A stretch of DNA of 64,000 bases from a virus. How positions within the stretch are numbered: the stretch's first letter is position 1; each line of letters opens with the position of its first letter. A program made the position numbers and the translations under genes. The stretch lies in the IMG/VR virus record IMGVR_UViG_3300005077_000018, positions 1,686-65,685 of that record. One strand, 5' to 3'. Shown in pieces: positions 2,171-24,680 of the stretch. Under the pieces are notes generated by a model, which saw nothing but the letters and a program-made list of their open reading frames with translations, ran no database searches and had not been told where the DNA came from.

Positions 2171-2463
2171 TGAGAAATGATCTACACCCTACCGATCGCT
2201 CTCTTCCCGAACATGACACCCTCAACCCTCGAGGAGGAGAATTCGACGAAGAGTTCGCCGTCGCCAGTGAACTTCGGGTCATCGACCTCGGAGATTCCCT
2301 CACGATCGGAAGAGTTTTCCTGGACCCGTATGGGGATCCCTATTCCTATGAGACCGACACCCTCTACGCAGACAATCTTTCCGGTCTTCGGGAGATGGTC
2401 AGAGAGATTACTCTCGCTTTGAGCAGACCTGCTGTGAATTCTCGAGACATGATCCAATGCTGA
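2170..2463 (+). CDS. Hypothetical protein
   Basis: TAATG-coupled ORF between terS and terL. Confidence 0.6.
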   Translation: MRNDLHPTDRSLPEHDTLNPRGGEFDEEFAVASELRVIDLGDSLTIGRVFLDPYGDPYSYETDTLYADNLSGLREMVREITLALSRPAVNSRDMIQC

Positions 2464-3773
2464 GAGCTTTTGCTGATCCAACTCTAGATCCCAGAAATGC
2501 TCCGTATCAGCCCTTCGGGGTTGCGGAAGATTTGCTGTATGACCAGAGCGATCAGATCATTCTGTGCGGTCCATCGGGAACGGGCAAGTCCAGAGCTTGT
2601 TTGGAGAAGCTTCATCTGATCTGCTCCAAATACGCCGGAACCAGAGCTTTGATGGTTAGAAAGACTAGAGCTTCTCTAACTCAGTCAGCTATGGTGACTT
2701 TTGAGAAGATGGTCGTTCCTCAAAATGACTCGGTTTCTTTTAGAACGGGAGAGCAAGAGTACAGATATGTGAACGGTAGCGTCATAGCTGTAGGCGGAAT
2801 GGATAAGGCAATCAAGATCATGTCTACGGAATACGACATAATCTATGTCCAGGAGGCTACCGAGCTAAGTGAAGAGGACTGGGAAACTCTAACAACCAGA
2901 GCCAGATTCGGAAGAGTTCCATACAATCAGGTTATCGGGGACTGCAATCCGTCATTTCCTTTCCATTGGATCAAGCGGAAATCTGACAGAGGAGAGCTCA
3001 AACTCTACAATAGCAGACATGAGGACAATCCTGTTCTATTCAATCAAATTTTGAGGGACTGGACTCCCAAGGGAAGAGCCTATCTAGCTAAATTGGAGAA
3101 GCTGTCGGGTGTACGGTTCAAGAGATTGAGATTGGGAATCTGGGCCGCCGCTGAGGGAATGATCTATACGGAGTACGATTCTAACGTTCATCTACTGGAC
3201 AGATTTCCCATTCCCGCCGAGTGGGATAGATATTGGGTCGTTGACTTCGGTTTCACAAATCCCTTCGTATGGCAAGCCTGGGCGATTGATCCTGAGGGAA
3301 GAGCCTACCGTTTCGCTGAGATCTACCGTACTCAGCTCCTTGTGGAAGATGCCGCCGCTATGATTTCTGCTTGGAGAAGAGAGAACTCTGAGCTTCCTCC
3401 AGCGGCTCTAATTTGCGATCACGACGCAGAGGACAGAGCTACTCTTGAGCGACATCTCAATCTGACTACGGAGCCAGCTATAAAGAATGTCAGCGGCGGT
3501 ATTCAGACGGTCAAGGAGAGACTGAGGATCAGAGAAGACGGGAAAGCCAGAATGTATTTTCTGAGAGACTCAGTTTGGGATGTCGATGAGGAATTGGTTG
3601 ATGCTATGAAACCCTACTCTACTGAGCAGGAATTTGATGCGTATGAGTGGGCTGATTCCAGGAAGCGTGACGAACCCAAGAAAGTTGATGATCATGGCAT
3701 GGACTGTACCAGATATCTTTCGGTTCATCTTGATAACTTCGTAGACGCATGGTCTATGGGAATGAGTTCATAG
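2457..3773 (+). CDS. terL: Terminase large subunit (PBSX-like)
   Basis: Walker A GPSGTGKS, Walker B-like YVQEATE, DCNP, nuclease VDFGFTNP and DDHGMDCTRY. Confidence 0.95.
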   Translation: MLRAFADPTLDPRNAPYQPFGVAEDLLYDQSDQIILCGPSGTGKSRACLEKLHLICSKYAGTRALMVRKTRASLTQSAMVTFEKMVVPQNDSVSFRTGEQEYRYVNGSVIAVGGMDKAIKIMSTEYDIIYVQEATELSEEDWETLTTRARFGRVPYNQVIGDCNPSFPFHWIKRKSDRGELKLYNSRHEDNPVLFNQILRDWTPKGRAYLAKLEKLSGVRFKRLRLGIWAAAEGMIYTEYDSNVHLLDRFPIPAEWDRYWVVDFGFTNPFVWQAWAIDPEGRAYRFAEIYRTQLLVEDAAAMISAWRRENSELPPAALICDHDAEDRATLERHLNLTTEPAIKNVSGGIQTVKERLRIREDGKARMYFLRDSVWDVDEELVDAMKPYSTEQEFDAYEWADSRKRDEPKKVDDHGMDCTRYLSVHLDNFVDAWSMGMSS

Positions 3774-3792: not shown

Positions 3793-5763
3793 ATGGTTCG
3801 TTCAGACCAGGATAAATTCAAAACACAGGAACCGGAAGATTTCTTCGCTAATATGGTGAAGATTTATACCGATATAGACGAGGAGAAAGAACCTCCGTAC
3901 TCTAAGGATAGTCGTGCTCGGGATAAGTGGCTCATAGAATTTGCGAGGAGAGAGCCGCATTTGAGCGGAATACTGTCAAGTGTTACTGCCATTGATAAGA
4001 ACAGAGGGTGGTCTCTAATCGGATCGATGCGTCAGGTTAACAAGTACGCACGAATTCTTCACAATTTCAGAGTGTCTCCCGGTCTAAAGGGATGGCGTCC
4101 AGCTTTCGCTCAGCTGTCGGCATCATTCTGGGGCACGAATCTGGGCGCAGTTGTTGAAGTCGGTAGAGTGGGAGTTGATGGACCTGTTCAGGAATTCTAC
4201 ACAGCAGATCCGACTAAATTCGTCCTCGCAAAGGATCAAAAATTCCCTATTTACTATTATCCTTCCAATGGAAAGAGAATGAAGTGGAGAGATTCAGATT
4301 TCTTCAGGATTTGTTCTCTTCCTTCCATTCTCGAGGAGAACATGGGAATAGGATTCTGTGCCGTCGATCGTGCTGTTCAGCTTGCGAGACTGATGCTGGC
4401 TCTTTTTCGTCATGATGAGGAGATGCTTCTTTCTCGTGCTCCAAGAGGCCTTCTGCTTCTGTCCGGAATAAAGCGCGATCAATGGGAATCCGCTATGAAA
4501 GCAAGAGACGCGGAGCTGGATCAGGGTCAAATGAAGTATTTCGGAGCGATAGCCGTTCTTGCCTCAGCTTCCTCTACCGTTGAGGCGAAGCTCATGGCCC
4601 TTTCTCAGCTTCCGGCGGGTTTCGATCTGAAGATATGGATGGATATGATCATGTACGGATATTCTCTATGCTTCGGATATGACGCATCGGAATTCTGGCC
4701 GGTTCAATACGGTTCTTTGGGGAGAGGAAATGAAACACAGATTCAGCACGAGAAAGCAACCGGAAAGGGTCGTCTTGACTTCGTTCTCGGATTCCAGGAA
4801 CAGGTTACTGATTTTCTGCCTGAGTCTCTTGACTTTGTTGTTGAGCAGCGTGATGATCAGGGAGATCTTACTCGTGCGTCCGTTATTCAGGCGTGGGCGA
4901 ATGTTGCCAAATCTCTGTACACATCTCAATTGAACGGAATTCCTCTGGTAACGAATGAGGAGGCTAGAGTACTTCTGGCCGAGTACGGAGTTATTCCAGC
5001 TACGTGGAGTCCTACCGCCGATGCTTCTGCTACCGATATCGATGATGCTGACGACGAGGAAGTGGTCGATCAACCCGAAGACGAGGAGTCTGCAGGAGGA
5101 TCGTCAGAAGGGAACATGAAGCCAAAGTCAACCAGTCCTGACTCGGCTTCTCCCACCGCTGAGATGCTTCGGTCAGCTTACAAAACTCGAAGAATTCAAG
5201 ATTTAAGAGAGGTTGTTCTTCAGAAAGCTTCTGTGTTTGAAGCCGCGAGAAGATTTCCTAAAGAACCTATTGTTCAGTTTACTTACCCCGGGAATAATAT
5301 CCTGGAGCTGTGGAAATCAGGAGAGGATTTGATGAAACCTAGAGTTTGGGCTTCCATAGGAGATGTTGTTAGAAGAGCAATTCAGGAGAGTCTTCCTCCG
5401 GCAGTTGTCGGATCTGGTCTTGTTCAATCCAATCAGCCGACTCAACCTCAGATTGTGGTTGTAGATACTGAGGGAAGAATAGTTCAGCAAGCACGTCAAG
5501 AACCTTCCATAGTTGTGAACGTGCCCGAGCAGAATTTCCAGGTTGACTTGGAGAGGCTCGGTGAAGTCATAGCCAAACAACTGAAACAGGCTTCTGATCC
5601 TACGATAACTCTTACTCCGATCATTCAACTTCCAGAAATTCCTGTGATCGTAGAGAATAACGTAACTATCCAGGAGCCAGTTACCGAGGCGGTCGTAGAG
5701 GTCAACAGAGGATTCGACGGGAAGATTAAATCGGTAAAGAAAACTGAAAAGGTCATACGATGA
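3793..5763 (+). CDS. Portal protein with acidic linker and C-terminal extension
   Basis: Directly after terL, 656 aa, helical portal-like composition. Confidence 0.8.
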   Translation: MVRSDQDKFKTQEPEDFFANMVKIYTDIDEEKEPPYSKDSRARDKWLIEFARREPHLSGILSSVTAIDKNRGWSLIGSMRQVNKYARILHNFRVSPGLKGWRPAFAQLSASFWGTNLGAVVEVGRVGVDGPVQEFYTADPTKFVLAKDQKFPIYYYPSNGKRMKWRDSDFFRICSLPSILEENMGIGFCAVDRAVQLARLMLALFRHDEEMLLSRAPRGLLLLSGIKRDQWESAMKARDAELDQGQMKYFGAIAVLASASSTVEAKLMALSQLPAGFDLKIWMDMIMYGYSLCFGYDASEFWPVQYGSLGRGNETQIQHEKATGKGRLDFVLGFQEQVTDFLPESLDFVVEQRDDQGDLTRASVIQAWANVAKSLYTSQLNGIPLVTNEEARVLLAEYGVIPATWSPTADASATDIDDADDEEVVDQPEDEESAGGSSEGNMKPKSTSPDSASPTAEMLRSAYKTRRIQDLREVVLQKASVFEAARRFPKEPIVQFTYPGNNILELWKSGEDLMKPRVWASIGDVVRRAIQESLPPAVVGSGLVQSNQPTQPQIVVVDTEGRIVQQARQEPSIVVNVPEQNFQVDLERLGEVIAKQLKQASDPTITLTPIIQLPEIPVIVENNVTIQEPVTEAVVEVNRGFDGKIKSVKKTEKVIR

Positions 5764-6653
5764 GCGGTTTGTCCGTAGTCATTCCCTCCAGGAACGAGCT
5801 ATTTCTGGAAAATACAGTCAGGGATATTTTGACCAACTCAAGAGGAGAACTTGAGATCATCGTAGTTCTTGACGGATATTGGCCCAATCCTCCTCTACCG
5901 GACGATCGAAGAATCAGCATCATTCACAGAGGAAAAGCTAGAGGAATGCGTGACGGGATCAATTCAGCGATTAGTATAGCTCGCAACAAATTCGTCATGA
6001 AATGCGATGCTCATTGTCTATTCGCCGAGGGATTTGATGAAATTTTGAAGGCTGACTGCGACGATGACTGGGTTGTTATTCCAAGAAGATACTCTCTAAA
6101 TCCAGACACGTGGGGTCTAAATAAAAAGACTCCGGTAGACTATCATTTTCTGAGTTATCCGTGGTGGAAGCCTGAGATGCTCGGTCTTCATGGAACGGTA
6201 TGGACAGAACGGGCCAAGGAGAGGCTTCACATTACTCTGGACGAGGAAATGAGTTTTCAGGGATCCTGCTGGTTCACTACCAAGGATCATTTTATCAACA
6301 GAATAAGATTTCTTGAAGAGGAAGGATACGAAACTTTCATCGGAGAACCTCAGGAGGTTGGAAATAAAACTTGGTTGGGAGGGGGCAAGGTAATGGTCAA
6401 TAAGAAGACCTACTACGCTCATCTCCACAAGGGAAAGAGGTTCGGACGAGGATACTTCATGAGCAAAGACGAGACCTACCGAGGAAATCAGTTCAGTTGG
6501 AATTTCTGGTTCTACGACCAATGGTCTGACAGAATTCACGATTTATCCTGGCTAGTAGACAGATTTTGGCCCGTTCCATCCTGGCCTGAAAACTGGAAAG
6601 ACATTCATGAAAACGATATTAGACTTCGTAGAAAACCTGGAAAGTCCTCGTAG
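5760..6653 (+). CDS. Family 2 glycosyltransferase
   Basis: LSVVIPSRNE, EIIVVLDG, GMRDGINSA, KCDAH. Confidence 0.9.
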   Translation: MSGLSVVIPSRNELFLENTVRDILTNSRGELEIIVVLDGYWPNPPLPDDRRISIIHRGKARGMRDGINSAISIARNKFVMKCDAHCLFAEGFDEILKADCDDDWVVIPRRYSLNPDTWGLNKKTPVDYHFLSYPWWKPEMLGLHGTVWTERAKERLHITLDEEMSFQGSCWFTTKDHFINRIRFLEEEGYETFIGEPQEVGNKTWLGGGKVMVNKKTYYAHLHKGKRFGRGYFMSKDETYRGNQFSWNFWFYDQWSDRIHDLSWLVDRFWPVPSWPENWKDIHENDIRLRRKPGKSS

Positions 6654-7236
6654 ATCTCCCGTTGAAATCACCGGAGTTGGGAGAGATGATCTTGCGGTCT
6701 TCTTCCGGGAAGCTGGATTTCGCGTAGGAGTTGAGCTGGGAGTTGAGCAGGGATTGTTCACTGAGGTTTTAGCGAAATCTAATCCTGAGGCTAAGATTTA
6801 TGCGATAGATGCTTGGGAGGCATATCGTGGATACCGAGATCATGTGTCTCAGAGCAAACTGTCGGATTTCTATCTCGAGGCGAATAGACGGGTTAGAGAT
6901 TTGAACGTAGAATTGGTTGTAGCTTTCAGCATGGATGCTCTAGAGCAGTTTGATGACGAATCTCTTGACTTTGTCTATATAGACGCAAATCACGAACTAC
7001 CGTATGTGATCAGAGACATAATCGAATGGAGTAAGAAAGTTAGGAAGGGTGGAGTAGTCTCTGGCCATGATTATTACGAGTCAAAACGTATTTCCACCAA
7101 GAATCATGTAAAATATGCGGTAGATTGCTACACTAGATCCTATAGAATAAATCCCTGGTTCATTCTAGGTTCCAAAGCTAAGAATGACGGGGAAATCAGA
7201 GACAAATCAAGGTCTTGGATGTGGGTAAAACGGTAG
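6607..7236 (+). CDS. Class I SAM-dependent (O-)methyltransferase
   Basis: GVELGVEQG, DESLDFVYIDANH, GGVVSGHDY. Confidence 0.9.
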   Translation: MKTILDFVENLESPRRSPVEITGVGRDDLAVFFREAGFRVGVELGVEQGLFTEVLAKSNPEAKIYAIDAWEAYRGYRDHVSQSKLSDFYLEANRRVRDLNVELVVAFSMDALEQFDDESLDFVYIDANHELPYVIRDIIEWSKKVRKGGVVSGHDYYESKRISTKNHVKYAVDCYTRSYRINPWFILGSKAKNDGEIRDKSRSWMWVKR

Positions 7237-8135
7237 ATTTATCAGTAATCATTCCTGCTAGAAATGAGGAATTTCTGGGAGAAACCGTCAAAGGAGTCCT
7301 GGATAACTCAAGAGCTAACACAGAGATTGTGGTGGTTCTCGATGGAGAGTGGCCTGTGAATTCGTTGAGAATTGATCCGAGATTGTCCATTCTCTACCGT
7401 CCTGAAAGTATAGGTCAAAGAGCAGCTATGAATGAGGCGTTCAGGTTATCCAGGGGTCGATGGATCATGAAACTTGACGCTCATTGCGCTGTTGATGAGG
7501 GTTTTGATCGGAAGCTTTTGTCCGTTATCAAGCCCGATTGGACGATGGCTCCCTGCATGAAGAATCTCCATGTTTTTGATTGGGTTTGCTCTTGTGGGCA
7601 TAGAATCTACCAAGGACCTATACCTAAGAAATGTCCTTCTTGCTCTGGATCTTCTTTCAGTAGAGAAATAGTCTGGATTCCCAAATCCAGTCCTAACAGT
7701 TGTTCCTTCAGATTCGATCGAGATCTTCGCTTTCAATACTGGAGAGAGTTTGGAAAGAGGCCTGAAGGAAAGGGTCCTATAGCTCCGTCTTTGAGTCTTC
7801 AGGGATCTTGTTTCATGTTGTCTAGGGAAAAGTACGAGGAGTTGAATATAGCTGACGAGGAACATGGTTCTTGGGGTCAGCAGGGAACAGAGGTAGCTTG
7901 TAAGACGTGGCTTTCCGGGGGTCAGGTTATGATCATGAAGACTACCTGGTATGCTCATCTATTCAGAACTCAAGCTGGATTTACTTTTCCCTATAAACTT
8001 GAATCTGGACAGGTTGATCATGCTAGAAAATACTCTAGAGAGCTTTTTCTCGAGGGAAAATGGGATAAGGCTATTTACGATCTGAATTGGTTGCTTGAAA
8101 AATTCAAACCAGTTCCAGGATGGCATGATGGCTGA
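7215..8135 (+). CDS. Family 2 glycosyltransferase, paralog of 5760..6653, with Cys-rich insert
   Basis: LSVIIPARNE, VVVLDG, KLDAHC, QGSCF, KTWLSGG shared with the first GT; CxC...CPSC insert. Confidence 0.9.
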   Translation: MDVGKTVDLSVIIPARNEEFLGETVKGVLDNSRANTEIVVVLDGEWPVNSLRIDPRLSILYRPESIGQRAAMNEAFRLSRGRWIMKLDAHCAVDEGFDRKLLSVIKPDWTMAPCMKNLHVFDWVCSCGHRIYQGPIPKKCPSCSGSSFSREIVWIPKSSPNSCSFRFDRDLRFQYWREFGKRPEGKGPIAPSLSLQGSCFMLSREKYEELNIADEEHGSWGQQGTEVACKTWLSGGQVMIMKTTWYAHLFRTQAGFTFPYKLESGQVDHARKYSRELFLEGKWDKAIYDLNWLLEKFKPVPGWHDG

Positions 8136-8820
8136 AATAATTTACTATACTTGTAATACTCATCCTCCAGAAATAGATCTGAACTGCAGAAGAGTTCTGA
8201 AGGATGTTCCTCTAAGAATAGTGTGTGTATCTTTGAACTCTATGCTGGATTTCGGAGATCACAACATCATGATGACCGGAGAAAGAGGTCCTCTGATGAT
8301 GTTTCGTCAGATCCTTACCGGACTTCGTGCTTCAGATGACGACTATGTATTTCTTTGCGAGTCTGACGTTCTTTATCCGTTCAGTCATTTTTCTCCTCCA
8401 GCTATTTTGAGTAACGAATTTCTGTACAATACGAATGTATGGAAGATGAGGTTCTCTGACGGTTTACTGGTTTGGACCGACAACATGATTCAAGTAAGTG
8501 GTTTATTCAGCAGAAGAGAGTTTCTCATGGACTGGGTTTTCAAGAAGATCGATCAGATAAAGAAAGATGGATTTGATCGACATTACGAGCCTGGTGTTCG
8601 TCAGAAACTAAAATTCGACTGCAAAGTCAATACTTGGGAATCGGCGTCTCCTCTAGTTTGCGTCAGACACGACAAGAACTTGACCAAATCAAAGTGGTCT
8701 CCTGAGGAATTCAGAAATTCCAAGTTTGCCTACGGATGGAAGACCGCTAGAGAAATTCCTCTGTGGGGAACATCTGAGCAGATTCTGTCAATTTTTGGTA
8801 GAAGTGGAGAATCGAAATGA
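8125..8820 (+). CDS. Glycosyltransferase-like protein (GT-A fold)
   Basis: QILTGL...DDDYVFLCESDVLY motif; start probably ATG near 8125-8128. Confidence 0.6.
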   Translation: MMAEIIYYTCNTHPPEIDLNCRRVLKDVPLRIVCVSLNSMLDFGDHNIMMTGERGPLMMFRQILTGLRASDDDYVFLCESDVLYPFSHFSPPAILSNEFLYNTNVWKMRFSDGLLVWTDNMIQVSGLFSRREFLMDWVFKKIDQIKKDGFDRHYEPGVRQKLKFDCKVNTWESASPLVCVRHDKNLTKSKWSPEEFRNSKFAYGWKTAREIPLWGTSEQILSIFGRSGESK

Positions 8821-11800
8821 GTCTAATTATACGCTCTACAAGAATAGCGGCTCCGACTTCTACCGGAAATCAAGATATAACAATCTCTGATTTCGGAACT
8901 CCGAAATTTGCTATTTTACAGATAACGAATGCTACACAGAATGCTACTTCTGTTAATCATTTAGTTTATGGATTTGGCATGGTCGGAAACAGTCAACAGA
9001 TGGCTGTTGGAAGAACCGACGAGCATAATCTCGATACTTCTGACGCTTACGATACGAATAGTACCAGCAAATGTCTGATCATTCTAAATCCAGCGGATGG
9101 AACTGTTGATGGAGAAGCAGAATTCGTAGAGTGGATAACCAATGGAATAAGAATAAATTGGACCAATGCTCCTTCTTCAGCCTATCTTGTTACCGCTACT
9201 CTTTTCGGAGGAACTGATCTCACGAACGTGTATTTGGGATCAGTAAATCCGAGCTCAACTTTGAATAATACAGTAGATGTCACTGCTCCTGGATTTCAAC
9301 CTAATCTAGTATTTACTGCCGAGTCTTTATCTTCAAGCACAGCTTACGGTGGAGTTAGTCTCGGAGTAGTTCATAGCGGAATTTCTGTGACTCAGGGGTC
9401 TATCCAGGCCATGTCCAGAGATGCTAGAGGAACTACTCAATCAGCTCTTAACATATCCGATTCTTACGGATCAGGTATAGCTCTTTTGACCGCTAATGGT
9501 TATCAGGCTGAGTTTGGTAGTTTTGATGCCAGCGGATTCTCTATTACTACCAGGGGAAGTGCGAATGCCGTAGGAACTCTGTTTTATGCGGCTTTAGCGA
9601 TAACTAATTTTGATATAAAGGTTGGATTCCTCTCTACTCCCACCTCTACCGGAAGTCAGGGAATTACAGGAGTCGGATTCAAACCTCAATTTCTGTATAC
9701 TCTATTCGGTGGAGCAGAAGCATACGACACTAATTACGATGATGATGATGGATGCTCTTTTTCTGTAGGTGTTGCTGATTATCTCAACGAGTATTCCTGC
9801 ACTATAACTACAGATATAGATGCCGGAACTTCAGATACGGAATCTAGAGTTGATGATAGTCTTGTAAGAATAAATAATCCGGATGGTTCCGTTCAAGCTC
9901 AGGCTTCGTTCACTCAATTTGACAATGACGGTTGGACTTGGAATTTCTCTTCAGTTGATGGTACTGCTGGGAAAGTTGGAGTTTATCTGGCAATTGAGGA
10001 AGAAGTTTCTACCGGATCTCCTAGCTCGTCGGTTTCTCCTTCCGGTTCACCCTCAAATTCTCCTTCTGTTTCTCCTTCTGTTTCTCCTTCTGGTTCTTCC
10101 TCCAACAGTCCTAGCAATTCTCCGTCGGTCTCTCCGTCGTCTAGTACCTCTCCTTCGAGTAGTGTGAGTCCTTCTCCTAGTGTAGGAATTTCTACTTTTG
10201 TGAATGGTTACGGAGGAGATGTAAATTCCGCTAAAGACGCTCTTCTTAATGGTAGAATTCCAGAGTTGGGTCTTGAGGATCACGGAAGTTTCGAGGTAGA
10301 TGATCAGCAGAGAGGCTTGATATTTTTCAGTTGTTCAGCTGTTCCTGCAGGAAGTCATTGTTCTTCGGCTACTCTCGAGATGTGGAAAAATGATTCGGGA
10401 GGAGTCAACGTTTGCGAAGTTGAGATTTACAAAGTAGCTCTAGCTAATAAGAATTGGATTCTGGGAGAGGGAGTAGGAAATCCTGCTCCTGAAGATTGTC
10501 CAACTTGGGAAGCTCTAGCCGCCGATGGAAGCGGAGGAGTGAAAGTTGCTTGGGCGGGTTCAGCCGGTTTGTCTACCGCTGGAACAGACTACAACTCTAC
10601 CATGATTGGATCTTTCATATTTTCCGGTTCTGACGCCGCAGGGACTCACTACACTTGTGAGTTGGATCCGGATTCTGTAGAGGAGTGGTTCGGGTCGGAC
10701 GATTATAATGCTGGACTGCTTCTGATATTCCCTGTATTCACAGGAAATCATCTTACTCAATCAGAATATGGGACAACTGGATACAGACCAAAACTAACCA
10801 TTGAGTATATAGAAGCTAGCGATTCTCCATCTCTATCTCCGTCGGCCTCTCTTTCTCCATCTTCTAGCGTTTCTCCCAGTGAGTCGGCAAGTTTATCTCC
10901 CTCATCCAGTATTTCTCCATCGTCTAGTAGTTCTAGCTCTCAGTCTCCTAGCGATTCTCCTTCGCTTTCTCCCTCTTCATCTCTCAGCCCTAGTAGCTCT
11001 GAGAGTCCTAGTGTTTCTCCTTCCAGCTCAGGCTCTTCGTCTCAGAGTCCCTCTGTTTCTCCGTCCAGTTCGAGCTCTGCAAGTCAATCTCCAAGCTCTT
11101 CTTTGTCTCCCAGCTCTTCTGTGAGTCCTTCTCAGAGCTCGTCTAATTCTCCTAGTTTATCTCCGTCAAGTTCGGAATCTGCTAGTCAGTCTCCTAGCTC
11201 TTCGAATTCAGCTAGTCAATCTCCTAGCTCGTCTACCTCTCCAAGTTCGTCAGTTTCTGCAAGCCAGTCGTCTAGTTCGTCTCCAAGTTCGTCGTCAAGT
11301 ATTTCTCCCTCTCCGTCCATTGGAGATATTCCGTGGAATCTGCCTTCGTCAGTCAATGTCTATATAGGATCCATCGATTCCGGATCCGTGTGGTCTACAC
11401 ATGACGATGACGATCAGAAGTTTGTGGTCTCTGGAGTCATAGGAACTCCAGCTTTCATGATCGATTTAGTTTTTGGAGAGGGAGAGGAAGTTCCGTCGTT
11501 TAATCTTCTACTTACCGTTAGAGGATTCTACTCCGGAAATCCAGGTCATAACGTAAAACTTCGTCAATATAACTGGGCTACAGAAGATTGGGATGATGTT
11601 ACTTCGGATGTTCAAGATTTTCCGGATCAAAGCTCCGATCAGGAATACGAATTTGATCTTATAGCAGATATTGATCATTTGAGTGATACAGGACTTGTGT
11701 CTGTAGCCATAGTCCACACTACCTCAGGAACTGCGGACGATCAGCTTAGTATAGATCATGCGTTCTTGACTCTTCTTGGAAGTCCTAGTAGTAGCGTCAG

Positions 11801-12458
11801 TCCTAGTAGTAGTGTCAGTCCTAGTAGTAGTGTTAGCTCATCTATTTCTCCATCGAGCTCGACTAGTCCTTCCTCTAGCGCATCTTCCTCATTGAGTCCG
11901 TCGTCGTCTGAGAGCTCTTCTCAGAGTTCCTCTGTTAGTTCGTCTCAATCCTCCAGCGAGTCGTCAAGTGCTAGCTCGTCTCAATCTCCTAGCTCTTCCG
12001 CTTCATCAAGTGAGAGCCCTTCTCCTAGTCCTGCAAGTCCTAGCAGTAGTCTAAGTCCTTCTTCCAGTCCCTCTGCCAGTGAGTCCGGTAGTGTCTCTCC
12101 TAGTTCTTCAGGATCGGCAAGTCAAAGTCCAAGCTCGTCTGAGAGCTCTAGTCAGAGTCCTAGTAGTAGTGCTTCCAGGTCAGTGTCTCCTTCCTCTTCA
12201 GGAAGTCCTTCTCGGTCTCCATCCTCGTCAGTTTCGTCCAGTCCTTCTTCCAGCGCTTCCAGAAGTACCTCTTCGAGCGCTTCCTCGAGTACTTCTTCTA
12301 GCAACTCATCCTCAGAATCTCCGTCAGTGTCTCCTTCCGAGGGTCCTGAGCCAGAGCCTAATCCAGCTCCTGTAGGTGGATCAGGTTGGAACAGATACTT
12401 CGTAGAACCTGGCGAAGACGATGAGGAATTGTTGAAAATTCTCATGTCAATTCTATAG
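8817..12458 (+). CDS. Large Ser/Pro-rich (mucin-like) putative virion protein
   Basis: Three SPS-repeat blocks separating beta-rich globular domains; middle domain resembles DNRLRE-type domains. Confidence 0.8.
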   Translation: MSLIIRSTRIAAPTSTGNQDITISDFGTPKFAILQITNATQNATSVNHLVYGFGMVGNSQQMAVGRTDEHNLDTSDAYDTNSTSKCLIILNPADGTVDGEAEFVEWITNGIRINWTNAPSSAYLVTATLFGGTDLTNVYLGSVNPSSTLNNTVDVTAPGFQPNLVFTAESLSSSTAYGGVSLGVVHSGISVTQGSIQAMSRDARGTTQSALNISDSYGSGIALLTANGYQAEFGSFDASGFSITTRGSANAVGTLFYAALAITNFDIKVGFLSTPTSTGSQGITGVGFKPQFLYTLFGGAEAYDTNYDDDDGCSFSVGVADYLNEYSCTITTDIDAGTSDTESRVDDSLVRINNPDGSVQAQASFTQFDNDGWTWNFSSVDGTAGKVGVYLAIEEEVSTGSPSSSVSPSGSPSNSPSVSPSVSPSGSSSNSPSNSPSVSPSSSTSPSSSVSPSPSVGISTFVNGYGGDVNSAKDALLNGRIPELGLEDHGSFEVDDQQRGLIFFSCSAVPAGSHCSSATLEMWKNDSGGVNVCEVEIYKVALANKNWILGEGVGNPAPEDCPTWEALAADGSGGVKVAWAGSAGLSTAGTDYNSTMIGSFIFSGSDAAGTHYTCELDPDSVEEWFGSDDYNAGLLLIFPVFTGNHLTQSEYGTTGYRPKLTIEYIEASDSPSLSPSASLSPSSSVSPSESASLSPSSSISPSSSSSSSQSPSDSPSLSPSSSLSPSSSESPSVSPSSSGSSSQSPSVSPSSSSSASQSPSSSLSPSSSVSPSQSSSNSPSLSPSSSESASQSPSSSNSASQSPSSSTSPSSSVSASQSSSSSPSSSSSISPSPSIGDIPWNLPSSVNVYIGSIDSGSVWSTHDDDDQKFVVSGVIGTPAFMIDLVFGEGEEVPSFNLLLTVRGFYSGNPGHNVKLRQYNWATEDWDDVTSDVQDFPDQSSDQEYEFDLIADIDHLSDTGLVSVAIVHTTSGTADDQLSIDHAFLTLLGSPSSSVSPSSSVSPSSSVSSSISPSSSTSPSSSASSSLSPSSSESSSQSSSVSSSQSSSESSSASSSQSPSSSASSSESPSPSPASPSSSLSPSSSPSASESGSVSPSSSGSASQSPSSSESSSQSPSSSASRSVSPSSSGSPSRSPSSSVSSSPSSSASRSTSSSASSSTSSSNSSSESPSVSPSEGPEPEPNPAPVGGSGWNRYFVEPGEDDEELLKILMSIL
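11782..11834 (+). repeat. 18-nt tandem repeat encoding SPSSSV x3
   Basis: AGTCCTAGTAGTAG(C/T)GT(C/T) three times. Confidence 0.8.
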
Positions 12459-12467
12459 GAGAAATCT

Positions 12468-12992
12468 ATGAGTGCAAGTCTTCCAATCGAGTATCTCAGA
12501 GATCTTCCGTTTCATTTTCCAGCTTTTTTCGAGACTGGAACTTCAGAGGGAGATACGGTTCAGTCGGCTCTTGAAGCTGGGTTTTCAGAAATCTACTCCG
12601 TAGAGTTCCATCCAGAAATTTTTAGGAAGGCTCAAAGAAGATTCGTCGAATCCAAAAATGTGAGTTTGCTGAATTTCAAATCGGTGGAAGGTCTCAAAAT
12701 TCTAATCCCGTTTATTGAGGTTCCTACCGTATTCTTCCTGGATGCTCATCCCGATAGAGATGCGGGAGAATCTCCAATCTTGGAGGAGCTAGACGAGATT
12801 TCCAAATTCAAGCTTCCGTTTGTAATATTCGCTGATGATATGAGACTCATGGGTCAGGGAAAATGGTCAAGATCTTCTACCTCGGCTATTCAAGAGAAGA
12901 TTCTGTCTATCCATTCTGATTTTATGATAGATTTTATCGGCAACGGTCATTCAGATAGAGATCTTCTTAGAGCCGTGAGGAATTGGAAATGA
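12468..12992 (+). CDS. SAM-dependent methyltransferase-like protein
   Basis: FFETGTSEG, YSVE, FFLDAH, ILEEL, FADDMR. Confidence 0.7.
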   Translation: MSASLPIEYLRDLPFHFPAFFETGTSEGDTVQSALEAGFSEIYSVEFHPEIFRKAQRRFVESKNVSLLNFKSVEGLKILIPFIEVPTVFFLDAHPDRDAGESPILEELDEISKFKLPFVIFADDMRLMGQGKWSRSSTSAIQEKILSIHSDFMIDFIGNGHSDRDLLRAVRNWK

Positions 12993-14686
12993 TCGTCTCC
13001 ATAGTTACAGGAACATACAATCGTTTGAAGTCTCTCAAGAGAATGATCGACAGCGTTAGAAATTCAGTAGGAATTGGATTTCCGTACGAAATAGTTGTCG
13101 TAGATGGCGGATCTACCGACGGAACTCAGGAATTTCTACGTAATCAATCTGACGTAGTTTTAATCGAACAGAAAGAGCTGCTCGGTGCAGTGAAAGCCTT
13201 CAACGAAGGAGCCAGATCCTCAAGAGGAAGATATGTGATCATGGCTAATGACGATATAGCATTCAAATACGAATCCATAGTGAATGCTATATCGGTTCTT
13301 GAAGACGATTCCTCGATTGGAATTGGGTGTTTTCCACAGAACAGATATTCCTCCGAGTATACCGTGTCCAGGATGCCTGCTGTGATAGATGGAGCTCAAT
13401 CCTCAACATGGTACGGTCAGGTCTGCATTATTCCAAGATGGCTGGGAAATAGAGTTGGATGGTGGGGAGAGGGATATCATACTTACGGTGGCGATAACGA
13501 GATGTCTTGTAAGGTTCTCGAGTTAGGACTTAGAGTTGTTCCGTTGGAATCATGTTGCATAGATGATTTCGTGGAGAAAGACGAGCTTAGAAAAATAAAT
13601 TCGAAGGGATTCGGACCTGGCGATAATCATCCCGACTCGATTCTGTGGAAATCAAGATGGACCAGAAATGACAAGATTGGTCCTGTAGTGTCAAATTTTC
13701 CTCTCATAGATATTCCGAAAAGAACCAAAGATATAAGAGTTTTGTATGCTCCCATATACGAGGATTCGTCTTTTCCAATTCAGCTGAAAACCAAGAAGGG
13801 CTTGAGGGAATCTCTTTCGAAACATTGGATGGTTTACGAAGTAAATTACAGACGAGATCCCGACTTGATTTACTATGGGGTTTCCATGTTTAGACCCAAC
13901 TTGGTGATCATTCAGTTTCATGATCCGAAAGCGATATCCTATGACTTGATGATGAAGCTTCGCGATGAATTCAAGGATACCGTATTCGTTAGCTGGAACG
14001 GAGATTATAACCTCAAAGCATTGGAATCTTCAGCCTATAAGCAAGTCGCAAAATTGTTCCATTTGACCACTTTCGTTTGCATGGATATTATTCCTCAGTA
14101 TATTGCCGAGGGGATCAACGCTAAATATTGGCAGATAGGATTCGAGGATTATGATGTCATTCCTGGAACTCTGAAGGAGAGAATAGACGTATTATTTATG
14201 GGGAATTGTTACACAAGACAACGTCAATCAATGGGAGAAATGTTGCGGATTCGTAAGGATCTGAAAACACGTTTGTACGGATCGTGGCCTTCTCACATAG
14301 GATCGGACGGAAACACTCTCTATGATTTTGCTACCGGAGATTTGATCTGCAGGTCTTCAGAAATAGTTCTCGGAGATAATAATTTTCCTGATTCCTATGC
14401 GTATGTTTCAAATAGACTTTTTCAGGTTCTTCACTCTGGAGCATTCTATCTTCAGCAGGTAATTCCTGGAATGACGCAAACTTTAGGTTTAGAAGATGGA
14501 GTTCATCTGGCGACGTGGACTGATTTGAATGATCTATCTAACAAGATAGATTTTTGGTTGCCCAGAAAATCAGAAAGACTTCAGATCGGAAGGGAGGGAA
14601 AGAAATTTATCGACAGATACCATTCCTTCGACGCTAGAGTTTCTGAGTTGATGCTAATGCTCGCAGAGTTGAAAATGGGTCACTAG
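12983..14686 (+). CDS. Two-domain glycosyltransferase (GT2 + CgeB/GT-B-like)
   Basis: IVVVDGGSTDGT, ANDDI, YGGDNE; C-terminal FMGNCY, SNRLFQ, HSFDARV. Confidence 0.85.
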   Translation: MEMIVSIVTGTYNRLKSLKRMIDSVRNSVGIGFPYEIVVVDGGSTDGTQEFLRNQSDVVLIEQKELLGAVKAFNEGARSSRGRYVIMANDDIAFKYESIVNAISVLEDDSSIGIGCFPQNRYSSEYTVSRMPAVIDGAQSSTWYGQVCIIPRWLGNRVGWWGEGYHTYGGDNEMSCKVLELGLRVVPLESCCIDDFVEKDELRKINSKGFGPGDNHPDSILWKSRWTRNDKIGPVVSNFPLIDIPKRTKDIRVLYAPIYEDSSFPIQLKTKKGLRESLSKHWMVYEVNYRRDPDLIYYGVSMFRPNLVIIQFHDPKAISYDLMMKLRDEFKDTVFVSWNGDYNLKALESSAYKQVAKLFHLTTFVCMDIIPQYIAEGINAKYWQIGFEDYDVIPGTLKERIDVLFMGNCYTRQRQSMGEMLRIRKDLKTRLYGSWPSHIGSDGNTLYDFATGDLICRSSEIVLGDNNFPDSYAYVSNRLFQVLHSGAFYLQQVIPGMTQTLGLEDGVHLATWTDLNDLSNKIDFWLPRKSERLQIGREGKKFIDRYHSFDARVSELMLMLAELKMGH

Positions 14687-18760: not shown

Positions 18761-18792
18761 GAGGGTGGGAGATCCGAAATTCTCCCACCCTC
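18761..18792 (+). terminator. Perfect 12-bp hairpin after the capsid gene
   Basis: GAGGGTGGGAGA / TCTCCCACCCTC, 8-nt loop; no U tract, so attenuator or stabiliser. Confidence 0.6.
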
Positions 18793-18806
18793 GAAGGAAT
18801 AAAAAA

Positions 18807-20132
18807 TTGGATTTTTCTGTTATCGTTCCGTCGTTCAATTCCGCGAAGTATCTTCCGGATCTGTTTCACTCCATATTCGGAGGCGAAACTTCTATTGGCG
18901 TTCTCAAAGCTCAAACTATTCTACCGTACGAAATTATAGTTGTTGATGATGCCTCTCAGGATAATACAGAAGAGGTAGTTGATTCGTTTAGAAGCAAATT
19001 TCCCAGGATATCCTACTACAGGTTGAACAGAAATAGTGGAACTCCTGTGGCTTGCAACGTAGCCGTCAGAAACAGTTCTACGGAAATAATCACTAGAATT
19101 GATTCCGACGATATGCGAGAGTTCGAATCTTTCGAGCGGATGCTTTCTATTCAGAGGTCGAATCCGAATTCGTTCGTTTTCGACGACATAAAAATATTCG
19201 TAAATGGAAAAAGACAGGTTCACGCATGGATAATGCCTGAGTATGATTTCTTCGGTCTTTTGCGGCAAAATACAATTCATGCAGGAATAATGTTTCCTAA
19301 ATCCGCATGGGAGAAATGCGGAGGATATCCCGAAGAGTTTGTCCGCGGAAGAGATGACTGGTCATTCAATGTTGCTCTTGGATCTGTGGGATGTTGCGGT
19401 ATTCATGTTCCTTACGCTGGCTATTTGTACAGAAGAGAGCAGCAAAATCGAACTTTACGAAATTCGTCATCGGAAGCTCAGAGAGACTTCATGTTTCAGA
19501 TGACGAAAAGATTTCCTGATCTGTACTCTGGGAGGTTTCCTATGGGATGCTGTGGAAATAGAGGTTCGCGTACTGCGACTTCTAAACCCTCCGGTTCTTC
19601 GTCGGAACTGGTTGTTGGAGAGGAAGGAATGACAATCCTCGAATATCAGGGAGGAAATTACGGTACTGAGACTTTCTACGGTCCTGTAACCAGAACTCCT
19701 TATCGATTCAACTCCACAAAATATTCGAAAAGAAATGTAGACAATCGGGATTTGCACGCTCCGAAAGGTCAAGGTCTTTTGGATTTTCACAACGGATCTA
19801 AGCCGATATTCGTTATTTGGCGTCCTTCCGAGCCAGTCGTTCAGGTTAACGACGTTCCCGAAGTTCCCGACATTTCCAAGACTGTCGAAGTTCCTGAGAC
19901 TGCGGACGCAACTTCCTCTGAAGTCAATGAGGCTGTTATGACGTTTCCGATCAGAACTCCGATAGAATCGGGACAAGTGAAAGGAATAACGGTAAAGAGA
20001 ATAAAAGCTCTTTCCGACAGGGGCATATCGGATTGGGAATCTTTCGTGTCGTCTTCCTCGGAGCTTCTGTCCGAGATTACTGGAATGTCTGTTGAGGACA
20101 TCAACGCGATCAAGAAGGATCTGACTGAATGA
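18807..20132 (+). CDS. GT2 glycosyltransferase fused to an MGCCG-type domain and an HhH-like C-terminus
   Basis: SVIVPSFN, IIVVDDASQD, RIDSDD, GRDDW; TTG start after AAGGA. Confidence 0.85.
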   Translation: MDFSVIVPSFNSAKYLPDLFHSIFGGETSIGVLKAQTILPYEIIVVDDASQDNTEEVVDSFRSKFPRISYYRLNRNSGTPVACNVAVRNSSTEIITRIDSDDMREFESFERMLSIQRSNPNSFVFDDIKIFVNGKRQVHAWIMPEYDFFGLLRQNTIHAGIMFPKSAWEKCGGYPEEFVRGRDDWSFNVALGSVGCCGIHVPYAGYLYRREQQNRTLRNSSSEAQRDFMFQMTKRFPDLYSGRFPMGCCGNRGSRTATSKPSGSSSELVVGEEGMTILEYQGGNYGTETFYGPVTRTPYRFNSTKYSKRNVDNRDLHAPKGQGLLDFHNGSKPIFVIWRPSEPVVQVNDVPEVPDISKTVEVPETADATSSEVNEAVMTFPIRTPIESGQVKGITVKRIKALSDRGISDWESFVSSSSELLSEITGMSVEDINAIKKDLTE

Positions 20133-23993: not shown

Positions 23994-24039
23994 TTCTGAT
24001 CCAAGGGGAGATCTTGAAATCTGCCTTGAAATTTTATTA

Positions 24040-24087
24040 CTCTCGGAAGGAGGGAATGGTAACTCCCCGCCACCTTCCTTCCGAGAG
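24040..24087 (+). terminator. 15-bp hairpin after the tail tube gene
   Basis: CTCTCGGAAGGAGGG / CCTTCCTTCCGAGAG. Confidence 0.55.
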
Positions 24088-24101
24088 TCGGGGAGAACTA
24101 T

Positions 24102-24680
24102 ATGTCAAAAGGATATAAAAATACTCAGCTAGCTCAGCTAGTTGAGGATGTTTCCAGAACAGAAGAAGTTATCTGGACCAATTCTCGAGGAATTACTGTA
24201 AGACTTCTTCCTATTCCTCCGTATTTGGTTCAGTTGGCCTCTTCCTCAATTGAGAGACCTACTCCTCCTACTTATACGGTAAAATTAGAGGGTGGAGGAA
24301 CTGAAACGCATATTCATGATGAGACCTCAATAGCTCAATCCTCAGAAGAGGAGAAGAAGTTATGGGAGGACTACAAGTTAGCTGAGATGCAGGCTGATCA
24401 AGCTGTCTCAGATCTTATTCTGGATATCGTTCTCATGGAAGGAGTCGTTCTTGAGCCAGAGACGCTTGAAGCAAGCAAGAAAAGGCTCCAGTTGTATAGA
24501 GTGAGTCTTCCTGAGGATCCAGAGGAAGCAGAACTATTTATGCGAAGAACATTCCTTATCGGAAATAGAAATGACGCGGAGGCTATAGTTTCAGTTGCTA
24601 TGGCTTTGACTGGAGCTTCTCCGGAAAGGTTGAAAGTTATGCGTAAATCCTTTCCAGATCCAATGGACTCCGAGTCATAA
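24102..24680 (+). CDS. Tail assembly chaperone (G-like)
   Basis: Between tube and TMP; acidic, helical. Confidence 0.75.
   Translation: MSKGYKNTQLAQLVEDVSRTEEVIWTNSRGITVRLLPIPPYLVQLASSSIERPTPPTYTVKLEGGGTETHIHDETSIAQSSEEEKKLWEDYKLAEMQADQAVSDLILDIVLMEGVVLEPETLEASKKRLQLYRVSLPEDPEEAELFMRRTFLIGNRNDAEAIVSVAMALTGASPERLKVMRKSFPDPMDSES

What the first reader, a model, noticed from the sequence alone, without database searches (positions are those of the whole stretch)
8817..12458. 1213-aa mucin-like protein with three SPS-repeat stalks separating globular domains
Seen: Ser/Pro blocks at about 10010-10185, 10820-11320 and 11780-12340 (SPSSSVSPS units, diverse codons, local 18-nt tandem repeats), then a short acidic/hydrophobic C-terminal tag (DDEELLKILMSIL). 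It sits in the centre of the GT cluster. Inference: a dedicated O-glycosylation scaffold forming a bottle-brush head fibre anchored by the C-terminal motif, with lectin-like domains displayed on the stalks.
Basis: partly seen in the sequence, partly recalled or inferred. Interest (0 to 1): 0.7.

Follow-up and report, generated by a model that had tools for sequence, protein, structure and literature searches.

The report
Phage serine-repeat adhesin beside mucin-type glycosyltransferases
An uncultured 70-kb phage encodes a 1213-residue protein whose three stalks have serine at every second position and which sits among enzymes resembling the animal enzymes that start mucin glycosylation, so it is most likely a sugar-coated, carbohydrate-binding fibre on the virus particle, though no sugar has been measured.

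Summary
ORF 8817-12458 encodes a 1213-aa protein, and its Ser/Pro blocks are strict (Ser-x)n arrays. They cover 412 residues, one run is 84 unbroken dipeptides, and they are the only such arrays in the genome.

The glycosylation-scaffold idea is supported by comparison, not by chemistry.
- The two upstream GT genes most resemble animal polypeptide GalNAc-transferases (GT27), with the DxH motif aligned.
- 17 of 19 viral loci with a homologue of the first GT carry a (Ser/Thr-x)n-array protein within 10 kb, against 2 of 41 control loci.
- A second phage (L011) pairs the same N-terminal module with a 612-aa array and the same GT.

New here: the first 398 residues form a single-chain pseudo-trimer of C1q/TNF-like jelly-rolls (pLDDT 96). 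This belongs to an unannotated family (3,606 cluster representatives; the matching ESM Atlas clusters are almost all viral). Domain 2 is DNRLRE/CBM-like. Domain 3 is CBM-like, from a weak model.

Not supported: "head" fibre and "anchored by the C-terminal tag". The tag is unique, many array proteins end with the array, and the constant part is N-terminal.

Earlier AI notes of this scan report the same array/GT27-like pairing on other DNA. I found no paper describing it.

The parts
8817..12458 (+). P0001, 1213-aa modular serine-repeat protein (whole ORF including the stop)
   Evidence: RBS and ATGA start/stop overlap with the upstream gene
8817..10010 (+). N-terminal module (aa 1-398): three ~130-aa jelly-roll repeats (about aa 1-133, 134-264, 265-398) forming a single-chain pseudo-trimer. 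It belongs to a large unannotated family whose matching Atlas clusters are almost all viral
   Evidence: internal repeat; AF2 pLDDT 96.3 and pTM 0.94; single-chain C1q/TNF trimers Z 7.7-8.8 over residues 1-398; 3,606 cluster representatives; matching Atlas clusters 88-100% viral
10011..10184 (+). (Ser-x)n array 1 (aa 399-456)
10188..10817 (+). Domain 2 (aa 458-667): DNRLRE / polysaccharide-binding-module-like beta-sandwich
   Evidence: NF033679 E 7e-7 at 29.4 bits, below the 34-bit cutoff; shared with P0006, P0011 and P0029 at 34-42% identity; chondroitin-sulfate CBM 8wab Z 9.1 and alginate-binding CBM 7vbo Z 8.2, from a moderate-confidence model
10818..11321 (+). (Ser-x)n array 2 (aa 668-835): 84 consecutive Ser-x dipeptides
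11322..11780 (+). Domain 3 (aa 836-988): beta-sandwich resembling CBM22/CBM15 and phage tail-tip domains; no sequence relatives found
   Evidence: no relatives; pLDDT 55-76; CBM22 Z 8.4
11781..12341 (+). (Ser-x)n array 3 (aa 989-1072 and 1074-1175, one register shift)
12342..12455 (+). C-terminal peptide (aa 1176-1213): Pro/Glu-rich stretch, then GGSGWNRYFVEPGEDDEELLKILMSIL. The last 11 residues are predicted helical. Unique to this protein
5760..6653 (+). GT2_a: soluble GT-A enzyme with a DxH motif (CDAHC); its closest solved relatives are polypeptide GalNAc-transferases
   Evidence: Pfam GT2; family profile against PDB; no TM segment; homologues next to arrays in 17 of 19 viral loci
6607..7236 (+). 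Methyltransf_24 methyltransferase, conserved in the cassette (12 of 19 loci)
7215..8135 (+). GT2_b: second GT27-like GT-A (LDAHC), with a Cys-rich CxC...CxxC insert
   Evidence: all 14 PDB hits are polypeptide GalNAc-transferases
8095..8820 (+). The '241-aa' protein: a divergent GT-A-fold glycosyltransferase. In most related loci it is fused to the C-terminus of GT2_b as one ~530-600-aa protein. The real start is probably an ATG near 8125
12468..12992 (+). 174-aa protein of unknown function, starting 10 nt after the P0001 stop behind its own AGGAG; no relatives in the loci examined
12983..14686 (+). 567-aa two-domain glycosyltransferase (GT2 + Glyco_trans_1_2)
18765..20132 (+). 455-aa GT2 with a C-terminal helix-hairpin-helix match, an outlying member of the GT cluster

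Best explanation
P0001 is a modular, adhesin-like protein of an uncultured siphovirus, probably carried on the virion. It has a conserved N-terminal module, a single chain that imitates a C1q/TNF-type trimeric head. After it come three mucin-like stalks with Ser at every second residue. The stalks separate two carbohydrate-binding-module-like domains, and the protein ends in a short unique peptide. The stalks are most likely O-glycosylated on serine in the cytoplasm, before or during assembly. The enzymes would be the soluble ones encoded around the gene: two GT27-like (polypeptide GalNAc-transferase-like) initiating enzymes, up to four further GT domains for extension, and a methyltransferase that may methylate the sugars. 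The product would be a stiffened, protease-resistant bottle-brush fibre about 100-140 nm long if extended. It would display glycan-binding domains for attachment to cell-surface or matrix polysaccharide. Shown: the architecture, the Ser-x periodicity, the confident N-module fold, the GT27 resemblance and the array/GT co-occurrence. Inferred: the glycosylation itself, the virion location, the ligand, and which end is attached. Comparative evidence favours the N-terminal module as the attached end.
For: Architecture and periodicity.
GT27 resemblance: the GT2_a family profile matches ppGalNAc-T1, 2, 4, 9 and 12 at E 1e-8 to 1e-7 over profile positions 3-255 of 288, with DxH aligned, while other GT2 structures match only the first ~90 residues. 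All 14 PDB hits of GT2_b are ppGalNAc-Ts.
Soluble enzymes, and no signal peptide or TM segment in P0001.
Co-occurrence: 17 of 19 IMG/VR loci with a GT2_a homologue hold a ([ST]x)>=10 array protein within 10 kb, against 2 of 41 control loci of similar length. Fisher p = 7e-11; the non-redundant count is 12 of 14 against 2 of 36, p = 6e-8.
L011: an N-module at 37% identity, a 612-aa array, and directly after it a GT2_a homologue at 56% identity.
The array carrier typically follows GT2_b::241 directly, as P0001 does. P0001 is the only array frame in the 70-kb genome.
Phage structural context: L003 and L005 place stand-alone modules in podovirus tail modules next to a beta-helix tailspike, and three relatives are fused to beta-helix domains. 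The window's operon runs from terminase to tape measure.
Binding domains.
Precedent for phage-encoded virion glycosylation: Freeman et al. 2023, as cited in PMC12619734 and PMC13313380.
Against: There is no chemical or proteomic evidence, because the phage is uncultured. Two viral loci with the GT (L054, L058) and all four MAG loci (L063-L066) show no strict array within 10 kb. Resemblance to GT27 does not fix the acceptor or the sugar. Virion location rests on gene position and on relatives' contexts only. D3 and parts of D2 come from a low-confidence model with mean pLDDT 49. The structural Z-scores of 8-9 are near the level where only a common arrangement may be shared.
Confidence: 0.6

Rival explanations
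1. One reading: a head fibre anchored to the capsid or portal by the C-terminal acidic/hydrophobic tag, with the N-terminal module and lectin-like domains displayed distally.
For: The gene lies between the putative portal and the remaining head genes. C1q/TNF-type heads are usually distal ligand-binding ends (established knowledge), and the N-module resembles them. The last 11 residues are predicted as an amphipathic helix. L011's protein also ends in a short non-repeat peptide.
Against: The C-tag has no relative in about 250 family members or 60 loci. C-tails after arrays are unrelated to one another, and about eight of about twenty carriers end with the array. The cassette and its carriers sit in tail-tip modules in L044, L049 and L051, so gene position follows the cassette, not the head. 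Stand-alone N-modules of ~420 aa, with no tail at all, are the commonest form and lie in tail modules.
Confidence: 0.12
2. The Ser-x arrays are plain flexible or extended linkers that are not glycosylated. The flanking GTs would act on another target, such as host envelope polysaccharide, other virion proteins or DNA.
For: Low-complexity linkers are common in modular adhesins and glycoside hydrolases. Six loci carry the GT but show no array within reach. Phage GT2 enzymes of the GtrB type modify O-antigen, with weak PHROG hits for two of the GTs here. The genome carries another sugar cassette proposed for DNA.
Against: The co-occurrence is strong, p = 7e-11. Over the whole catalytic domain the closest solved relatives are peptide O-GalNAc transferases. 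Strict Ser periodicity kept across two codon families points to constraint on the Ser side chains themselves. The enzymes lack TM segments, unlike GtrB-type lipid-carrier transferases.
Confidence: 0.15
3. P0001 is not part of the particle. It would be made during infection and released at lysis, or act inside the cell, for example as a soluble glycoprotein that binds matrix polysaccharide or decoys defences.
For: No virion proteomics exists. The protein has no recognised virion-attachment domain. The N-module is a self-contained globular unit.
Against: The gene is translationally coupled within the late structural operon. In other loci arrays lie inside bona fide tail-tip proteins of the Gp37-like type. 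Family members are fused to tailspike-type beta-helices or sit in tail modules.
Confidence: 0.1

Closest known systems
Serine-rich repeat glycoprotein adhesins of Gram-positive bacteria (Fap1, GspB, SraP, PsrP, L. reuteri SRRPs)
   Same: Long arrays with Ser at alternate positions flank folded ligand-binding regions. Dedicated soluble glycosyltransferases are encoded alongside, and glycosylation is cytoplasmic, before the protein reaches its final site. The role is adhesion (review PMC12355684; the Ser-x periodicity and cytoplasmic glycosylation of SRRPs are from established knowledge).
   Different: P0001 has no signal peptide, no LPXTG anchor and no SecA2/Y2 export genes. The enzymes are GT-A/GT27-like, not the GT-B GtfA/GtfB pair. 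Pro is the commonest partner residue. The protein is encoded by a phage, with three arrays and three folded parts.
Animal and apicomplexan mucin-type O-glycosylation started by polypeptide GalNAc-transferases (CAZy GT27)
   Same: GT2_a and GT2_b align with GT27 catalytic domains, including the DxH metal-binding motif. The putative substrate is a Pro-containing Ser-rich tandem array, like a mucin PTS domain.
   Different: Identity is low (E about 1e-8). There is no ricin-type lectin domain; instead GT2_b is usually fused to another GT-A domain. The setting is cytoplasmic, not the Golgi. The arrays are Ser-only (261 Ser, 6 Thr). The sugar is unknown.
Mycobacteriophage virion glycosylation (Freeman et al. 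2023, Cell Host Microbe 31:1216; cited in PMC12619734 and PMC13313380)
   Same: Phage-encoded glycosyltransferases, with methyltransferases nearby, lie among the structural genes and modify the phage's own particle proteins.
   Different: There the glycans sit at the C-termini of the capsid and tail-tube subunits. Here the candidate substrate is a separate 1213-aa protein with 412 array residues. Neither GT2_a nor GT2_b has any tblastn match in 50,697 GenBank phage records.
Trimeric C1q/TNF-like jelly-roll heads (C1q globular head, adiponectin, BAFF/APRIL)
   Same: The N-module model superposes over its full length on engineered single-chain trimers of these heads (5kca Z 8.8, 4dou 7.9, 5hzf 7.8, 4zch 7.7; about 245 residues aligned, rmsd about 5 A).
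   Different: Here the three jelly-rolls are naturally joined in one chain. There is no sequence similarity to the C1q or TNF families. The Z-scores are modest and the module sits at the N-terminus.
DNRLRE domain (NF033679) and polysaccharide-binding modules of lyases (alginate-binding and chondroitin-sulfate-binding CBMs)
   Same: D2 matches the DNRLRE profile over positions 27-164 of 164. Its model is closest to 8wab and 7vbo.
   Different: The score is below the curated cutoff (29.4 against 34 bits). The model has only moderate confidence. No lyase domain is attached here.

Membership tests
Serine-rich repeat glycoproteins (SRRP: Fap1/GspB type) | Long Ser-x dipeptide arrays flanking a folded binding region | tested here: met
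   Unbroken Ser-x runs of 56, 168, 84 and 102 aa flank D2 and D3
Serine-rich repeat glycoproteins (SRRP: Fap1/GspB type) | Extended N-terminal signal peptide for accessory Sec export | tested here: not met
   The N-terminus is part of the folded beta module. Maximum hydropathy over 15-aa windows in the first 60 residues is 0.81
Serine-rich repeat glycoproteins (SRRP: Fap1/GspB type) | C-terminal LPXTG cell-wall anchor | tested here: not met
   No LPxTG-like motif in the protein
Serine-rich repeat glycoproteins (SRRP: Fap1/GspB type) | GtfA/GtfB (GT-B) initiating pair and SecA2/SecY2 in the locus | tested here: not met
   The flanking enzymes are GT-A (GT2/GT27-like). The neighbours are a phage structural operon with no Sec genes
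CAZy GT27 polypeptide GalNAc-transferases (for GT2_a and GT2_b, the presumed modifying enzymes) | GT-A catalytic domain with a DxH motif and the downstream Gal/GalNAc-T region | tested here: met
   The profile aligns over positions 3-255 of 288 with CDAHC opposite LDSHC. GT2_b residues 166-267 match the second half of the catalytic domain of GalNAc-T1, T2 and T9
CAZy GT27 polypeptide GalNAc-transferases (for GT2_a and GT2_b, the presumed modifying enzymes) | C-terminal ricin-type lectin domain | tested here: not met
   GT2_a is only 297 aa. GT2_b is followed by, or fused to, a GT-A-fold domain instead
CAZy GT27 polypeptide GalNAc-transferases (for GT2_a and GT2_b, the presumed modifying enzymes) | Transfer of GalNAc from UDP-GalNAc to Ser/Thr of a polypeptide | not testable with these tools
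   Needs an enzyme assay
Phage virion glycosylation (mycobacteriophage type) | Phage-encoded GTs embedded in the structural module | tested here: met
Phage virion glycosylation (mycobacteriophage type) | Glycans demonstrated on virion proteins | not testable with these tools
   The phage is uncultured and no proteomic data are available
DNRLRE domain (NF033679) | Score at or above the curated NCBIfam cutoff | tested here: inconclusive
   29.4 bits against a cutoff of 34, E 7e-7, covering profile positions 27-164. Structural matches to polysaccharide-binding modules have Z 8.2-9.1
C1q/TNF superfamily | Jelly-roll protomers arranged around a three-fold axis | tested here: inconclusive
   The top four matches are single-chain C1q/TNF trimers at Z 7.7-8.8 over residues 1-398. 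No sequence match exists and the Z-scores are near the background level
Pfam DUF7483 (PF24299) | Match to the Pfam profile | tested here: not met
   No Pfam hit at E up to 10. There is only a structural resemblance, TM 0.54

The most novel reading that the evidence does not exclude
Uncultured phages carry a portable 'mucin kit': GT27-like initiating transferases plus extension and methylation enzymes. The kit glycosylates any virion protein that bears a (Ser-x)n tag. In this phage it has been combined with a previously unrecognised phage family, the single-chain C1q/TNF-like pseudo-trimer, and with two carbohydrate-binding modules. The result would be a viral counterpart of bacterial serine-rich-repeat adhesins. 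It would also make prokaryotic viruses a reservoir of mucin-type O-glycosylation enzymes related to the animal ones.
Probability: 0.5. Interest if true: 0.85.

Novelty: new variant of a known kind. Interest (0 to 1): 0.7.

Why it matters
As far as I know, glycosylation of phage particles has been shown experimentally only in mycobacteriophages, where short C-terminal segments of capsid and tail-tube proteins are modified. Here a dedicated, very long serine array (a third of a 1213-aa protein) lies beside enzymes whose nearest solved relatives start mucin synthesis in animals. The same enzyme/array pairing recurs across otherwise unrelated uncultured phages.

If the arrays are glycosylated, this would be a second, mechanistically different route to sugar-coated virions. 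It would have consequences for host recognition, adhesion to polysaccharide matrices, protease and immune shielding, and the evolutionary history of GT27 enzymes.

Independently, the N-terminal module defines a very large, confidently folded family with no annotation. It is a natural single-chain trimer mimic that deserves a name and a structure.

Tried and rejected
- Pfam and PHROG scans of the whole protein and of each domain gave nothing, apart from the sub-threshold DNRLRE hit.
- tblastn of the N-module, GT2_a, GT2_b, the 656-aa and the 381-aa proteins against 50,697 GenBank phages gave no match. I therefore could not name the portal or major capsid protein, nor find a cultured relative.
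- PDB sequence searches with the N-module, D2, D3, the 241-aa, 381-aa and 656-aa proteins gave nothing significant.
- D3 has no sequence relatives of similar length, and only unnamed look-alikes in the Atlas.
- Foldseek on the N-module gave low TM-scores, so the independent aligner was needed.
- The contigs carrying P0012, P0024 and P0006 were too short to show any GT genes.
- The first related-loci run with the 93-sequence alignment failed for lack of conserved blocks. It was repeated with 12 sequences.
- The 174-aa downstream protein is not a conserved partner of N-module genes.
- A Pfam scan of the N-terminal domains of ten other array carriers gave only sub-threshold noise.
- A relaxed Ser/Thr/Pro-richness criterion was rejected because it picks up off-frame ORFs in GC-rich loci. 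Only the strict periodic criterion was used.
- A complex-prediction job on three copies of the C-terminal peptide (aa 1165-1213) returned 'no answer', score 0.00, and the controls were not run. This is no evidence either way.
- PEP-CTERM, LPXTG and foldon-like readings of the C-tag were considered. LPXTG was tested and is absent. PEP-CTERM was dropped because no TM helix or basic cluster follows the PEP-like stretch. The foldon idea remains an untested resemblance in length only.
- Freeman et al. 2023 could not be read here, so it is cited second-hand.

Full report
**1. Observation**

The ORF at 8817-12458 (+) is open and encodes 1213 aa. Its ATG overlaps the stop of the upstream gene (ATGA) behind a GGAG site. 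The next gene starts 10 nt after its stop, behind an AGGAG. It is therefore one cistron of a tightly packed late operon.

They are more regular than "SPS repeats": serine occupies every second residue.
- The unbroken Ser-x runs are 56 aa (401-456; 58 aa, 399-456, with Thr allowed in phase), 168, 84 and 102 aa long. There is one register shift at residue 1073.
- In array 2, 83 of 84 in-phase positions are Ser against 22 of 84 out-of-phase, and none of 10,000 shuffles reaches this.
- The arrays hold 412 residues, 34% of the protein, with 261 Ser and only 6 Thr.
- In-phase Ser is written with both codon families, 125 TCN and 80 AGY. Tandem DNA repeats are short and local.
- The pattern is thus maintained at the protein level and is not a recent slippage product.
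- No other frame in the whole 70,023-nt genome holds such an array.

**2. Context**

The window is an IMG/VR record of an uncultured siphovirus.
- Recognised phage genes: large terminase 2457-3773, tape measure 24900-29318, Dit 29320-30249 and a Gp37-like tail-tip protein 30252-31382.
- Upstream of P0001: GT2_a (5760-6653), a Methyltransf_24 enzyme (6607-7236), GT2_b (7215-8135) and a 241-aa protein (8095-8820).
- Downstream of P0001: a 174-aa unknown, a GT2+GT1 fusion (12983-14686) and, further on, another GT2 (18765-20132).
- The 241-aa protein is itself a divergent GT-A-fold transferase (Atlas TM 0.68-0.72 to GT2 clusters). In most related loci it is fused to the C-terminus of GT2_b.
- None of these enzymes has a TM segment, and P0001 has no signal peptide. 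Any modification would therefore be cytoplasmic.

**3. The folded parts**

*N-terminal module (residues 1-398).*
- It contains three ~130-aa repeats sharing a PTSTGxQxITxxGFxPxF-type motif.
- An exhaustive HMMER search found 3,606 cluster representatives at E <= 1e-3. Most are stand-alone proteins of ~415-430 aa. Others carry the module at the N-terminus, in the middle or at the C-terminus of proteins of up to about 3,100 aa.
- All named members are "hypothetical" and none has a Pfam domain.
- With a 93-sequence alignment, AlphaFold2 gives pLDDT 96.3 and pTM 0.94, all-beta.
- The independent aligner ranks four single-chain trimers of C1q/TNF heads first: 5kca Z 8.8, 4dou 7.9, 5hzf 7.8 and 4zch 7.7. 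Each aligns about 245 residues spanning residues 1-398. Foldseek's only high-probability hits are the same kind of object.
- I read the module as a natural single-chain pseudo-trimer of jelly-rolls. The Z-scores are modest, so this describes an arrangement and is not a claim of homology.
- The best-matching ESM Atlas clusters are 88-100% viral. DUF7483 proteins resemble the module only loosely, at TM 0.54.
- Stand-alone members sit in SU10-like podovirus tail modules, just before a beta-helix tailspike (L003, L005). Three of nine relatives with N-terminal extensions carry a right-handed beta-helix ahead of the module. The family thus keeps company with host-surface-polysaccharide machinery.

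*Domain 2 (aa 458-667).*
- It matches the DNRLRE domain at E 7e-7 and 29.4 bits, under the 34-bit cutoff.
- It recurs after the N-module in P0006, P0011 and P0029 at 34-42% identity, there with non-serine linkers.

*Domain 3, the arrays and the C-terminus.*
- A second fold, of residues 455-1213 with only four sequences, is poor overall, with mean pLDDT 49. The arrays are predicted without secondary structure. D2 and D3 are beta cores at pLDDT 55-85, and residues 1202-1212 form a helix.
- On that model D2 is nearest to a chondroitin-sulfate-binding module (8wab, Z 9.1) and an alginate-binding module (7vbo, Z 8.2).
- D3 is nearest to CBM22/CBM15 modules and to tail-tip domains of phages phi812, T1 and lambda (Z 7.4-8.4).
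- D3 and the C-terminal peptide have no sequence relatives.

**4. Are the arrays the substrate of the GTs?**

Three independent lines say probably yes.

(a) *Enzyme kinship.* A profile of 17 GT2_a homologues matches polypeptide GalNAc-transferases 1, 2, 4, 9 and 12 at E 1e-8 to 1e-7 over positions 3-255 of 288. The DxH motif is aligned (CDAHC opposite LDSHC). Other GT2 structures match only the first ~90 residues. GT2_b alone hits 14 PDB sequences, and all of them are GalNAc-transferases. The lead to GT27 came from earlier AI notes of this scan, and I tested it here.

(b) *Reverse co-occurrence.*
- GT2_a homologues in IMG/VR (19 loci, 29-57% identity) have a ([ST]x)>=10 array protein totalling at least 30 aa within 10 kb in 17 cases.
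- In 41 loci of similar length chosen for the N-module and lacking the GT, only two do. Both are Thr/Ser-type arrays on very short contigs.
- Fisher p = 7e-11. After collapsing near-identical loci the count is 12 of 14 against 2 of 36, p = 6e-8.
- The enzymes form a conserved cassette: GT2_a, the methyltransferase in 12 of 19 loci, GT2_b::241 and extra 241-like paralogues.
- The carriers differ. Some are Gp37-like tail-tip proteins (L044, L049, L051). Some are small proteins with C-terminal arrays that follow a 364-408-aa gene I take to be the capsid gene (L056, L059, L060). Others are large proteins directly after GT2_b::241, which is the position P0001 occupies.

(c) *A second instance of this very combination.* L011 encodes a 1041-aa protein with an N-module (37% identity), an uninterrupted 612-aa Ser-x array and a 26-aa tail. 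It is followed at once by a GT2_a homologue of 56% identity, although the rest of that phage's structural genes are unrelated to the window's.

*Caveats.*
- Two viral loci and four MAG loci carry the GT without a strict array in reach. Three of the MAG loci are labelled Gammaproteobacteria and one Candidatus Woesebacteria. There the cassette is expanded with paralogues.
- No glycan has been measured.

**5. Which end is attached, and where?**

This is not settled.
- Every array carrier has a folded N-terminal domain. About eight of about twenty end with the array itself. The C-tails that do exist share no motif.
- The C-tag of P0001 is unique.
- The N-module is the conserved part and exists alone in most phages.
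- These points favour N-terminal attachment with the stalks and CBM-like domains projecting outward, and they go against a general C-terminal anchor.
- "Head" is not supported either, because the gene's position follows the cassette, which lies in tail-tip modules elsewhere.
- If extended at 0.25-0.34 nm per residue, the arrays would span about 100-140 nm (inference).

**6. Comparison and novelty**

- Functionally the closest analogue is the bacterial serine-rich-repeat adhesin (PMC12355684). P0001 fails three of its defining features: signal peptide, LPXTG anchor, and the GtfA/B-SecA2/Y2 locus. It works like an SRRP but is not one.
- The enzymes resemble GT27 but lack the lectin domain.
- Phage virion glycosylation is known from mycobacteriophages (Freeman 2023, cited in PMC12619734 and PMC13313380). 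It differs in both substrate and enzymes, and neither GT here has a match in GenBank phages.
- Literature searches found no description of Ser-x arrays with GT27-like enzymes in phages, and none of DUF7483.
- Earlier AI notes of this scan report the same pairing on other DNA, in phages and in Patescibacteria. This window adds a new carrier type and the characterisation of the N-module family.

**7. Verdict**

The best explanation is a cytoplasmically O-glycosylated, carbohydrate-binding fibre that is probably part of the virion (confidence 0.6). It is a new variant of known kinds, namely virion glycosylation and SRRP-like adhesins. Interest is 0.7.

Noticed in passing
window 7215-8820: GT2_b (7215-8135) and the 241-aa GT-A-like protein (8095-8820) overlap by 41 nt in different frames. 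They correspond to the two halves (residues 3-299 and 312-530) of a single ~533-aa protein in L044 and most other loci. This is either a natural split at the domain linker, as in L057, or a frameshift.
   Followed up: partly
window 7560-7640 (GT2_b residues ~118-140): GT2_b and its homologues carry a Cys-rich CxC...CxxC insert (e.g. CSCGHRIYQGPIPKKCPSCSG) inside the GT27-like catalytic domain. This may be a zinc ribbon. The animal enzymes it aligns with do not have it.
   Followed up: no
L011:10001-14006: A second phage contig (IMGVR_UViG_3300042731_006342) encodes N-module + 612-aa uninterrupted Ser-x array + 26-aa tail. It is followed by a GT2 56% identical to the window's GT2_a. The contig ends about 100 nt later.
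   Followed up: yes
L007:461-2281 and L008:260-2002: Two N-module proteins (P0012, P0024) carry Thr/Ser-type alternating tails instead of Ser/Pro ones. L007 also has a 72-aa upstream ORF that is mostly a Thr/Ser array. The contigs are too short to see whether GT genes accompany them.
   Followed up: partly
L063-L066 (MAG contigs labelled Gammaproteobacteria and Candidatus Woesebacteria GW2011_GWA1_39_21): GC is 33-39%. The cassette is expanded here, with up to five GT2_a-like paralogues and several 241-like paralogues, but no strict Ser-x array lies within 10 kb. These may be mis-binned phage contigs or cellular versions of the system.
   Followed up: partly
window 22536-24680, and L050/L051: The 485-aa BNR/Asp-box protein and the 192-aa protein just upstream of the tape measure have homologues in the same position in L050 and L051 (E 7e-16 and 8e-8). 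They are probably a decorated tail-tube protein and a chaperone.
   Followed up: no
window 20583-21638 and L008:2559-3137: The 351-aa window protein has a weak homologue (E 3e-7) two genes after the N-module gene in L008. In a cassette-free relative, the N-module gene and this structural gene may therefore be near neighbours.
   Followed up: no
P0002, P0003 (relatives of the N-module): Some relatives hold two complete N-modules in tandem (P0002, 822 aa). In P0003 (1153 aa) two modules are separated by THTTDALLKK-type heptad-like repeats.
   Followed up: no
window 2457-3773: The large terminase is up to 49% identical to those of Thermobifida phage P1312 and Streptomyces phages, although the genome has only about 44% GC. 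The host remains unknown.
   Followed up: no
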